A stretch of 1,152 bases of DNA, from the sequence record OR846282.1; one strand, written 5' to 3'. This stretch comes from a phage. Below are positions 1 through 1,152 of this stretch, piece by piece; the first letter of the stretch is position 1; every line of letters starts with the position of its first letter. The notes under the pieces are model-generated. The model worked only from the letters and a program-made list of their open reading frames with translations, did not search any database and was not told the DNA's origin. The position numbers and the translations under genes were made by a program.

Positions 1-63
1 CTATTACATAATACTCATTACCGTGTCCCTTAAACTTAATTACTCTGAAGTCTGTAGCTTTCT

Positions 64-258
64 TTACCATAAGCCCTGCTCCTCACCTTCGTTCAGATAG
101 TACTGCTCTGCAATTAAGTCTTCTACCTGCTGGCGAGCACGCTTCGCCGTCTCTGGGGCGTGCTCTGCCAGCTCAAGTAACTTCGCCTCCATACCTGCGA
201 AGTCTTCTTGGAAGTACATTTCAATTACTTCTTCTACTGCTGCGTTGAAAGTTGCCAT
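64..258 (-). CDS. small, strongly acidic hypothetical protein (64 aa), function unknown
   Basis: ATG at 258..256 preceded on the minus strand by GAGGA (268..272) with a 9-nt spacer; TAA stop at 64..66. Same strand as the exonuclease and overlaps its 3' end by 25 nt (234..258). Composition counted from the translation: 15 Asp/Glu versus 4 Lys/Arg, no Cys. No recognisable catalytic motif. Confidence 0.55.
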   Translation of the reverse strand: MATFNAAVEEVIEMYFQEDFAGMEAKLLELAEHAPETAKRARQQVEDLIAEQYYLNEGEEQGLW

Positions 259-1152
259 GCTTTGTATTCCTCATTGTAAGCATGGAGGGACTCGCACCAT
301 TTCTGGAGGTCGCCCTCCAGTAGGGAGTGTATGTATTTGAAAGCTGAGTCGTCGGGGCTGCGTCTAAGAAAGAGGCATTCCATCTCAGCTAGGAAATTCT
401 GGTTAATCTCTGCATAGGCAGCAACTACTTTATTAGCTGCTTCCTTCTCGTTAGTGCAATCCTTGAGGAACTCATAAGCCCCAGCAGGACCAATGTTCTT
501 CCCCCTGTACTTGGTAAGGCCAGCGACGTTATCCGCACCGTCACCCATCAGGCACTGCGCATAGAAGAACGCTAGGCCGTGGCCCACTATCTTACCTCTG
601 GACTTATCGTAATCAATCCAGCCGTAAGCATCGTCTATAGTATCAACCGTGCCTAGCTCAGGGTTCCACTTAGGACCTCGGCACAGGTTCATATCCTTGT
701 CGAAGCTGCTTACTAAGCCACGTTCTCCAAAGACTCTACTGTCAGCAATAATAAGGTCGTCAGCTTCCTGCTGATAGTCGAATACAATCTCTATACCTTG
801 AGCAGAGTATTCATGAGGATTGGCTATGAGATGCGCTTTGAGAGGCGCTTTGAGTGGTATCTCCGTCCGCGTAGCCCGCTGACCTTGGTAGGGCTTAACG
901 GACGGCAGTAGGAAGCGCCCACACTTGAAGTTATCAGATGGAGGACTATAAGCCCGTACAGTCTTAGAGTTAACATAGAACTTATCCTCGAGGACTAATT
1001 GATAGAAGCGCCGGATAGCTGTATCCAAGCGCTTCACTGTACTGGCTGCCTTGTAGACATGCTGGTCACTATCTAGTAGCAGTACAGTATCTGAGGGAGC
1101 AGGTGGCGCTAACTGAGCGCCAAGCTCGTTTAGGTTAATGCCACCAACGTTC
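234..1152 (-). CDS. 5'-3' exonuclease / flap endonuclease (FEN / Pol I 5'-exo family, phage type); 5'-partial, N-terminus runs off the window
   Basis: ORF-track 267-aa product (234..1037) carries the acidic active-site motifs of FEN-type nucleases: EADD at 756..767 (cf. E. coli Pol I 5'-exo EADDVIGTLA), DKD at 693..701 (cf. GDKDMAQL) and GDGADNVAGL with GDGADN at 528..545 (cf. GDSSDNIPGV), plus a YQGQR element resembling YKxxR. My hand translation of the same frame upstream of 1037 has no stop to the window edge (…NVGGITLNELGAQLAPPAPSDTVLLLDSDQHVYKAAST-VKRLD…) and contains LLLDSD at 1065..1082, matching the N-terminal LILVDGSS-type motif. No ATG/GTG/TTG lies in that frame between 1038 and 1151, and the GTG at 1037 has no convincing Shine-Dalgarno. 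Stop codon TAG at 234..236. Confidence 0.85.
   Translation of the reverse strand, partial: NVGGINLNELGAQLAPPAPSDTVLLLDSDQHVYKAASTVKRLDTAIRRFYQLVLEDKFYVNSKTVRAYSPPSDNFKCGRFLLPSVKPYQGQRATRTEIPLKAPLKAHLIANPHEYSAQGIEIVFDYQQEADDLIIADSRVFGERGLVSSFDKDMNLCRGPKWNPELGTVDTIDDAYGWIDYDKSRGKIVGHGLAFFYAQCLMGDGADNVAGLTKYRGKNIGPAGAYEFLKDCTNEKEAANKVVAAYAEINQNFLAEMECLFLRRSPDDSAFKYIHSLLEGDLQKWCESLHAYNEEYKAWQLSTQQ
268..272 (-). promoter_or_regulatory. putative Shine-Dalgarno (GAGGA) for the 64-aa ORF, embedded in the 3' end of the exonuclease gene
   Basis: Minus-strand sequence reads TGAGGAATACAAAGCATG; the purine-rich GAGGA sits 9 nt upstream of the ATG at 258..256. Confidence 0.4.

What the first reader, a model, noticed from the sequence alone, without database searches (positions are those of the whole stretch)
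1035..1152. Exonuclease gene is 5'-truncated by the window; the ORF-track GTG start at 1037 would delete a conserved active-site segment
The frame is open from 1151 down into the called ORF. The extra 38 codons include LLLDSD (1065..1082), which in FEN/Pol I 5'-exo enzymes contributes a metal-binding Asp roughly 100 residues before the EADD motif; here the spacing is about 102 residues, matching Pol I (D13 to E113). A 267-aa call starting at 1037 would therefore be an N-terminally truncated, probably inactive enzyme. The real start codon must lie at or beyond position 1152.
Basis: partly seen in the sequence, partly recalled or inferred. Interest (0 to 1): 0.4.

Follow-up and report, generated by a model that had tools for sequence, protein, structure and literature searches.

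The report
Phage exonuclease gene clipped at start

Summary
Confirmed and ordinary. On the minus strand the frame is open from 1151 to the stop at 236..234, giving 305 codons. The GTG at 1037 is codon 39. LLLDSD lies at 1082..1065 and EADD at 767..756, and the first Asp is 102 residues before the Glu.

Three public phage records that are 99.7% identical continue upstream as ...GAGTAATGAAC. Window base 1152 is the G of that ATG, which overlaps the TAA stop of the upstream gene. The real protein is therefore 306 aa, and the window lacks only the "AT" of the start codon.

The two Asp of LLLDSD are invariant in 63 homologues and in 134 of 134 distant cluster representatives that cover the site. 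A profile-profile alignment to the E. coli Pol I 5'-nuclease domain (probability 95.7%, E 1e-8) gives these pairings:
- D27 with D13
- E129/D131/D132 with E113/D115/D116
- D151/D153 with D138/D140
- D204/D207 with D185/D188

The AlphaFold model (pLDDT 93) best matches T5 flap endonuclease, ExoIX and T4 RNase H. Related phages already annotate this gene as "exonuclease" of 306 to 308 aa, so nothing here is new.

Side notes: the window copy carries four unique nonsynonymous changes, one of them at a Thr that is otherwise almost invariant. The family also has an invariant Gln where canonical FENs have a Lys.

The parts
234..1152 (-). Phage 5'-3' exonuclease / flap-endonuclease-family gene. It comprises the last base of the ATG (1152), 305 sense codons (1151..237) and the TAG stop (236..234). 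The full product is 306 aa.
   Evidence: Translation. PHROG 107 'exonuclease' E 1.2e-56. Near-identical genomes give a 306-aa ORF. 88 homologues of 301-323 aa. AF2 model pLDDT 93 with T5 Fen, ExoIX and T4 RNase H as best PDB fold matches.
1152..1152 (-). Third base (G) of the true ATG start codon. The A and T lie just outside the window, and the ATG overlaps the upstream gene's TAA stop (TAATG).
   Evidence: L001 2999-3001 = ATG, and window 1152 = L001 3001. The junction is identical in L005 and L006.
1035..1037 (-). GTG coding for internal Val39 (Val40 of the full protein). It is the artefactual start of the mechanical ORF call.
   Evidence: One search gives the ORF call. The upstream context caaggcagccagtacaGTG has no good Shine-Dalgarno sequence. 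All homologues extend about 26-31 residues N-terminal of the invariant Asp.
1065..1082 (-). LLLDSD: the end of strand beta1 carrying the N-terminal active-site Asp (D27, 1073..1071; equivalent to Pol I D13, T5 D26 and FenA D9), plus a second family-invariant Asp (D29, 1067..1065).
   Evidence: Invariant in 63/63 and 134/134. hhalign places D27 on Pol I D13. Predicted strand 23-27 followed by helix 29-38.
756..767 (-). EADD motif (E129, D131, D132), aligned to Pol I E113, D115, D116 and T5 E128, D130.
   Evidence: Invariant. Aligned.
693..701 (-). DKD motif (D151, D153), aligned to Pol I D138, D140 and T5 D153, D155.
   Evidence: Invariant. Aligned.
528..545 (-). GDGADN, the H3TH-region motif (D204, D207), aligned to Pol I D185, D188 and T5 D201, D204.
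   Evidence: Invariant G203, D204, A206, D207. Aligned.
64..258 (-). Downstream 64-aa gene of unknown function. Its ATG at 258 overlaps the last 25 bases of the exonuclease gene.
   Evidence: phrog_6923 E 1.4e-7. Called as a gene on OR850875 and OR846985.
1..70 (-). Start of the next small gene (61 aa in relatives). Its ATG at 70..68 overlaps the stop of the 64-aa gene, and it runs off the low end of the window.
   Evidence: (L001 4083..4268).

Best explanation
The window holds, on its minus strand, an essentially complete gene for the 5'-3' exonuclease (FEN / Pol I 5'-nuclease fold) of a T7-like podovirus of the order Autographivirales; the closest classified relative is in Slopekvirinae. This is the functional counterpart of T7 gene 6.

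The true start is an ATG whose last base is window position 1152, translationally coupled to the upstream gene through a TAATG overlap. The product is 306 aa. The GTG at 1037 is an internal valine codon. It appears as a 'start' only because the window cuts off the first two bases of the real start codon.

The 38 codons upstream of the GTG encode strand beta1 and most of helix alpha1 of the PIN-like core. They include the invariant Asp (D27 in window numbering, D28 in the full protein) that, in characterised homologues, holds waters of catalytic metal M1.

Shown here: the coordinates, the start codon in near-identical genomes, conservation, fold, and residue-level correspondence with Pol I. Inferred: that the protein is a metal-dependent 5'-3' exonuclease/flap endonuclease acting in phage DNA replication, recombination and host DNA breakdown as T7 gp6 does, and that a 267-aa form would be inactive.
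For: - Frame and motif coordinates.
- Start codon and TAATG junction in three 99.6-99.7% identical genomes. A 306-aa gene call on those contigs.
- An 80% relative, PQ847473 (Autoscriptoviridae, Slopekvirinae), annotates a 308-aa 'exonuclease' with a GGAG Shine-Dalgarno sequence 8 nt before its ATG.
- 88 homologues of 301-323 aa, one named 'exonuclease [Escherichia phage vB_EcoP_PAS7]'.
- PHROG 107 exonuclease, E 1.2e-56.
- Invariant D27, D29, E129, D131, D132, D151, D153, D204, D207.
- The family is large: 4690 cluster representatives at E<=1e-3.
- hhalign against the Pol I family, 95.7%, E 9.8e-9, D27 on D13.
- PF02739 and PF01367 sub-threshold hits in 31 and 24 of 63 homologues.
- AF2 pLDDT 93, pTM 0.87.
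- Foldseek against PDB: T5 Fen 5hml/5hnk E 3.5e-8, ExoIX, T4 RNase H, Rad2, XPG, FEN1.
- Foldseek against BFVD: phage exonucleases, E down to 1e-21.
- FenA D9A and D9N are nearly dead: PMC5934675.
- Third-position bias of substitutions in the N-terminal segment.
Against: - The window's own source contig was not found. A 29-mer carrying its unique variant is absent from the viral, metagenome and genome collections. The two bases beyond 1152 are therefore inferred from 99.7%-identical relatives, not read.
- Pfam-A gives no hit for the window protein even at E<=1, and a plain sequence search of the PDB finds nothing. Family assignment rests on profile-profile and fold comparison.
- The Shine-Dalgarno sequence before the ATG in the near-identical genomes is weak (aggaagtagggtacgagtaATG), so initiation probably depends on coupling.
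- The family departs from canonical FENs at two active-site positions. An invariant Gln stands in place of the Tyr-Lys lysine, and there is no conserved second carboxylate.
- No enzymology exists for this clade.
Confidence: 0.93

Rival explanations
1. The GTG at 1037 is the real start, and the phage makes a 267-aa protein. The open frame upstream of it would then be non-coding or accidental.
For: It is the first canonical start codon inside the window. An open run of 38 codons has a chance probability of about 0.16.
Against: The upstream 38 codons contain three invariant residues and the conserved beta1/alpha1 elements. All full-length homologues start 26-31 residues before the Asp. Substitutions relative to an 80% relative are biased to third codon positions. 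There is no usable Shine-Dalgarno sequence before the GTG. An ATG sits at the frame's first start position in near-identical genomes.
Confidence: 0.02
2. Translation starts inside the window at a non-canonical codon upstream of or within the LLLDSD segment, either ATT at 1139 or CTG at 1082.
For: Both are in frame, and table 11 permits them as rare starts.
Against: A canonical ATG lies four codons upstream of the ATT in all three near-identical genomes and is coupled to the preceding stop. Homologues begin with Met at the corresponding position. A CTG start would remove part of strand beta1.
Confidence: 0.02
3. The window's own genome differs from the public relatives just beyond 1152. The gene could be fused to the upstream gene, start further upstream, or be a damaged allele, given its four unique amino-acid changes.
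For: The exact source was not found. The window has four private nonsynonymous changes, three of them at conserved positions.
Against: Identity to three independent records is 99.6-99.7% across the whole window, up to its last base, which matches the G of the ATG. In those records no ATG/GTG/TTG lies between the in-frame TAG 43 codons upstream and the ATG.
Confidence: 0.03

Closest known systems
Exonuclease of Slopekvirinae/Autographivirales coliphages (e.g. Escherichia phage vB_EcoP_P64441 XXQ42856.1, 308 aa; vB_EcoP_PAS7 exonuclease, 306 aa; PHROG 107)
   Same: 76-80% identity over the full length, the same length, the same N-terminal segment with LLLDxD, and the same place in the DNA-metabolism module upstream of endonuclease VII and the phage RNA polymerase.
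   Different: The window copy has four private substitutions (I3V, I70S, T71P, I140R in full-length numbering). P64441 has an HNH endonuclease gene directly upstream, which the window's lineage lacks.
Bacteriophage T7 gene 6 exonuclease
   Same: About 300 aa. It has the N-terminal hhhhDGD strand ('ILVMDGD' against 'VLLLDSD'), the Y-x-x-x-R, E-x-DD and DKD motifs, and the same role in a T7-like genome.
   Different: The sequence relation is only remote (hhalign probability 51%, E 1.6e-4, N-terminal half only). T7 gp6 keeps the Lys of Y-K-x-x-R and an Asp after strand beta2 ('FTD'), and it passes the Pfam PF02739 threshold (36.5 against 34.3 bits). The window protein gets no Pfam hit.
Bacteriophage T5 D15 flap endonuclease (PDB 5HML, 5HNK, 1EXN)
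   Same: Best solved-structure match (Foldseek E 3.5e-8, probability 1.0, TM 0.52-0.60). EADD, DxD and GDxxDN align with T5 E128/D130, D153/D155 and D201/D204.
   Different: 13-15% identity. T5 K83 corresponds to an invariant Gln here. T5 D68 has no conserved counterpart in the family. The C-terminal helices differ, as shown by the high global rmsd.
5'-nuclease domain of E. coli DNA polymerase I (PF02739 + PF01367), with M. smegmatis FenA and E. coli ExoIX
   Same: The profile-profile alignment spans 248 columns. D27 aligns with D13, E129/D131/D132 with E113/D115/D116, D151/D153 with D138/D140, and D204/D207 with D185/D188. Spacing from the Asp to the Glu is 102 residues against 100. FenA mutagenesis shows that the N-terminal Asp is essential.
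   Different: This is a stand-alone phage protein, not a polymerase domain. Identity is about 22%. The beta2 region and the second carboxylate do not align reliably.

Membership tests
FEN / bacterial-phage 5'-3' exonuclease family (PIN-like core + H3TH; Pfam PF02739 + PF01367) | PIN-like alpha/beta core followed by a helix-3-turn-helix DNA-binding module | tested here: met
   AF2 model pLDDT 93, pTM 0.87. The top 20 PDB fold matches (E<=1e-3) are all FEN-family enzymes: T5 Fen, ExoIX, plastid exonuclease 1, T4 RNase H and Rad2.
FEN / bacterial-phage 5'-3' exonuclease family (PIN-like core + H3TH; Pfam PF02739 + PF01367) | N-terminal Asp at the C-terminal end of strand beta1 (Pol I D13, T5 D26, FenA D9) | tested here: met
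   D27 (1073..1071) aligns with Pol I D13. PF02739 start positions agree. The residue is invariant in 63/63 and 134/134.
FEN / bacterial-phage 5'-3' exonuclease family (PIN-like core + H3TH; Pfam PF02739 + PF01367) | Second carboxylate after strand beta2 (Pol I D63, T5 D68, FenA D60) | tested here: inconclusive
   hhalign puts window D73 on T5 D68, but that column is Asp in only 20/63 homologues and 17/149 representatives. The Pol I alignment is unreliable in this region. The family instead conserves a Thr right after beta2. FenA D60A keeps 5% and 44% activity, so the loss may be tolerated.
FEN / bacterial-phage 5'-3' exonuclease family (PIN-like core + H3TH; Pfam PF02739 + PF01367) | E-x-D-D, D-x-D and G-D-x-x-D-N carboxylate motifs (metal sites M1-M3) | tested here: met
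   E129, D131, D132, D151, D153, D204 and D207 are invariant and align with the Pol I and T5 ligands.
FEN / bacterial-phage 5'-3' exonuclease family (PIN-like core + H3TH; Pfam PF02739 + PF01367) | Tyr-Lys-x-x-Arg of the arch base (T5 Y82, K83; FenA Y75, K76, R79) | tested here: not met
   Tyr88 and Arg92 are invariant, but the Lys position is Gln in 63/63 homologues and 137/138 representatives. FenA K76A keeps 18-35% activity, so this is a variation rather than an exclusion.
FEN / bacterial-phage 5'-3' exonuclease family (PIN-like core + H3TH; Pfam PF02739 + PF01367) | Score above Pfam's gathering threshold for PF02739 or PF01367 | tested here: not met
   No Pfam hit for the window protein at E<=1. 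31/63 homologues hit PF02739 below threshold, the best at 24.7 bits against a cut-off of 34.3.
FEN / bacterial-phage 5'-3' exonuclease family (PIN-like core + H3TH; Pfam PF02739 + PF01367) | Divalent-metal-dependent 5'-3' exonuclease / flap endonuclease activity | not testable with these tools
   Needs enzymology.
T7-like phage exonuclease (PHROG 107; T7 gp6 counterpart) | Significant match to the phage exonuclease family profile over most of its length | tested here: met
   phrog_107, E 1.2e-56, residues 12-296.
T7-like phage exonuclease (PHROG 107; T7 gp6 counterpart) | Direct sequence relation to T7 gp6 itself | tested here: inconclusive
   hhalign probability 51%, E 1.6e-4, 137 columns, N-terminal half only.
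T7-like phage exonuclease (PHROG 107; T7 gp6 counterpart) | Location in the DNA-metabolism module of an Autographivirales genome that encodes a single-subunit RNA polymerase | tested here: met
   The near-identical contigs and PQ847473 carry endonuclease VII, a DUF3310/HNH gene and the RNA polymerase (PF00940) within 3 kb downstream.

The most novel reading that the evidence does not exclude
This exonuclease clade could be a mechanistically distinct branch of the FEN family. It has 4690 cluster representatives, an invariant Gln in place of the Tyr-Lys lysine, a near-invariant Thr after strand beta2 instead of a conserved second carboxylate, and an extra invariant Asp two residues after the N-terminal Asp. 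On this reading the M1 metal site is built differently, for example with D29 substituting for the missing carboxylate, and the balance between exonuclease and flap endonuclease activity is altered. Separately, the window's private T->P, I->S and I->R changes at conserved sites could mark a naturally attenuated allele.
Probability: 0.12. Interest if true: 0.3.

Novelty: already known. Interest (0 to 1): 0.07.

Why it matters
The main value is annotation hygiene. When a window or contig end cuts a start codon, a mechanical ORF caller falls back to the next in-frame ATG/GTG/TTG. Here that would yield a 267-aa protein lacking strand beta1 and an essential active-site Asp. The case also shows that Pfam-A misses this large clade of phage FEN-type exonucleases, so they tend to be left as 'hypothetical protein' in metagenomes. 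Biologically the gene is the expected T7-gene-6-type exonuclease of an Autographivirales phage, and nothing about it is surprising.

Tried and rejected
- A Pfam-A scan of the window protein gave no hit at E<=1.
- A single-sequence phmmer search against PDB sequences gave nothing. An HMM profile of the family against PDB sequences gave only a marginal match to 9l56 (E 1.4) and a spurious coiled-coil hit.
- NCBIfam gave only far-sub-threshold hits to 5'-3' exonuclease and Pol I.
- hhalign of the family profile against single sequences of Pol I and T5 D15 aligned the EADD, DKD and GDxxDN region but not the N-terminus. The N-terminal correspondence appeared only once a 30-sequence Pol I family alignment was used as the target.
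- I searched for the window's exact source with a 29-mer spanning its private Ser-Pro variant. There were no matches in viral, metagenome or genome contigs.
- I considered and rejected the GTG at 1037 and the ATT and CTG codons as starts, and a fusion with or overlap by the upstream gene. That gene ends at the TAA of TAATG.

Full report
**1. The observation**

Read on the minus strand from position 1151, the frame is open for 305 codons and ends at the TAG at 236..234. The mechanical ORF list gives only 234..1037, starting at a GTG, as 267 aa.

| Motif | Window coordinates | Residues |
|---|---|---|
| LLLDSD | 1082..1065 | 24-29 |
| EADD | 767..756 | 129-132 |
| DKD | 701..693 | 151-153 |
| GDGADN | 545..528 | 203-208 |

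D27 lies 102 residues before E129. There is no in-frame ATG, GTG or TTG between 1151 and 1037, only ATT at 1139 and CTG at 1082.

**2. Where the gene really starts**

A megablast of the window against GenBank phage records found four records matching all 1152 bases at 99.6-99.7% identity. These are OR844702, OR848265, OR850875 and OR846985, all unannotated 'UNVERIFIED_ORG' wastewater isolates. It also found one annotated relative at 80% identity, PQ847473, Escherichia phage vB_EcoP_P64441 (Autographivirales, Autoscriptoviridae, Slopekvirinae).

In OR844702, OR850875 and OR846985 the sequence across the window edge is ...aggaagtagggtacgagtaATGAACATTGGTGG. The window starts at the G of that ATG. 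The ATG is the first ATG/GTG/TTG after an in-frame TAG 43 codons upstream, and it gives a 306-aa ORF. The upstream 128-aa ORF ends with a TAA whose last A is the A of the ATG (TAATG), the usual arrangement for translational coupling.

Gene calls stored in the public collection for OR850875 and OR846985 also give a 306-aa product that begins where the 128-aa gene ends. PQ847473 annotates a 308-aa 'exonuclease' with GGAG 8 nt before its ATG. So the window lacks just the 'AT' of the start codon and contains 305 of the 306 codons.

The GTG at 1037 has no convincing Shine-Dalgarno sequence.

**3. The 38 extra codons are coding and conserved**

A search of 5.8 billion proteins returned 88 homologues of 301-323 aa. 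The close ones are 306 aa, and one is named exonuclease of phage vB_EcoP_PAS7. In a 63-sequence alignment, L24, D27 and D29 are invariant, and all members carry 26-31 residues before the invariant Asp.

An exhaustive HMM search of 1.84 billion cluster representatives found 4690 relatives at E<=1e-3. Of the 149 best new representatives (one of the 150 listed was already in the alignment), 134 cover the site, and all 134 have both Asp. Against the 80% relative, differences in the N-terminal segment fall mainly on third codon positions (11 of 20), as they do across the whole gene (119 of 173).

**4. What the protein is**

PHROG 107 ('exonuclease') matches at E 1.2e-56. Pfam-A does not hit the window protein. 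However, 31 of 63 homologues hit PF02739 and 24 hit PF01367 below threshold.

The AlphaFold2 model is confident (pLDDT 93, pTM 0.87). It has a strand at residues 23-27 followed by a helix at 29-38. Its best solved-structure matches are listed below.

- T5 D15 flap endonuclease (5HML, 5HNK; E 3.5e-8)
- plastid exonuclease 1
- E. coli ExoIX
- T4 RNase H
- then Rad2, XPG, GEN1, FEN1 and Xrn1

Among predicted viral structures, the best matches that carry a name are podovirus exonucleases.

**5. Is the LLLDSD Asp the active-site Asp?**

Single-sequence targets aligned only the central motifs. I then built a 30-sequence alignment of Pol I 5'-nuclease domains and ran profile-profile alignment against it. 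The result had probability 95.7%, E 9.8e-9, over 248 columns, with the following correspondences:

| Window protein | E. coli Pol I |
|---|---|
| D27 | D13 |
| E129 / D131 / D132 | E113 / D115 / D116 |
| D151 / D153 | D138 / D140 |
| D204 / D207 | D185 / D188 |

Pfam gives independent support. PF02739 aligns homologue P0035 residues 24-155 to profile positions 2-134, and Pol I residues 9-170 to positions 2-164. This places P0035 D28 and Pol I D13 on the same profile position. T7 gp6 'ILVMDGD' aligns with 'VLLLDSD', though weakly (probability 51%).

In M. smegmatis FenA the equivalent Asp9 binds two waters of metal M1. D9A retains 0.2% of flap endonuclease and 3% of exonuclease activity, and D9N retains <=0.1% and 0.2% (PMC5934675). 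A protein starting at the GTG would lose this residue together with strand beta1 and most of helix alpha1.

**6. Comparison and novelty**

This is the T7-gene-6-type exonuclease of an Autographivirales phage. It sits in the DNA-metabolism module upstream of endonuclease VII and the phage RNA polymerase, and related genomes already annotate it as such. It is a member of the FEN / 5'-3' exonuclease superfamily by fold and by seven of the eight canonical carboxylates.

The clade departs from canonical members in three ways:

- The Lys of the Tyr-Lys-x-x-Arg motif is an invariant Gln.
- The second carboxylate (T5 D68) is not conserved, and a near-invariant Thr follows strand beta2 instead.
- Sequence models in Pfam do not reach it.

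These are family-level variations, not features of this finding.

**7. Things noticed along the way**

The window differs from the three public near-identical records I aligned at four positions (1148, 946, 944, 736). All four are nonsynonymous and lie in this gene. Three of them put unusual residues at conserved sites. One is Pro in place of a Thr found in 62/62 and 136/137 homologues. The exact variant was not found in any collection searched.

**8. Verdict**

The feature is an ordinary edge-of-window artefact on a known kind of gene, so interest is low.

Noticed in passing
window 1148, 946, 944, 736 (minus-strand codons 2, 69, 70, 139 of the exonuclease): The window differs at four bases from the three public near-identical phage records that were aligned to it. 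All four changes are nonsynonymous (I->V, I->S, T->P, I->R) and none is synonymous. The T->P change hits a Thr present in 62/62 aligned homologues and 136/137 distant representatives. Ser and Arg at the other two sites are also unique. This could be a damaged or attenuated allele, or sequencing or assembly errors. A 29-mer carrying the Ser-Pro variant was not found in any collection.
   Followed up: partly
window 887..885 (Gln89 codon) and 944..933 (residues 70-73): The whole clade has an invariant Gln where T5 Fen K83, FenA K76 and the Pol I Lys sit in the Tyr-Lys-x-x-Arg motif. It also lacks a conserved counterpart of the second metal-site carboxylate (T5 D68), while a second Asp (D29) two residues after the N-terminal Asp is invariant. 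The M1 site may be built differently in this clade.
   Followed up: partly
L001 (OR844702), L005 (OR850875), L006 (OR846985), and OR848265: Essentially the same phage sequence (99.6-99.7% over the window) is deposited as an Escherichia phage, a Salmonella phage and two Listeria phages, all 'UNVERIFIED_ORG' and unannotated, from wastewater. The Listeria host labels for a coliphage-like Autographivirales genome look doubtful.
   Followed up: no
window 234..258 and 64..70; L001 2997..3001: Gene junctions are tightly overlapped. The exonuclease start is a TAATG junction, the exonuclease 3' end and the 64-aa gene overlap by 25 nt, and the 64-aa gene and the next 61-aa gene overlap in ATGGTAA. This is consistent with translational coupling along the module.
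   Followed up: no
BFVD entries A0A5B9NC75 (Klebsiella phage KMI6, 193 aa), A0A0H4U2C4 (Yersinia phage ISAO8, 195 aa), A0A6S6YJE4 (Vibrio phage SrVc9, 184 aa): Several annotated phage 'exonuclease' proteins of only 180-195 aa match just part of the model at 33-46% identity.
   Followed up: no
L002 (PQ847473) 2472..2993 versus L001 2613..2999: The 80% relative has an HNH endonuclease gene inserted directly upstream of, and overlapping, the exonuclease start. The window's lineage has the 128-aa unknown gene abutting the exonuclease instead.
   Followed up: no
window 237..1151 (-): Pfam-A and NCBIfam fail to name this protein (no Pfam hit at E<=1), despite a clear FEN fold and a family of thousands of cluster representatives.
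   Followed up: yes
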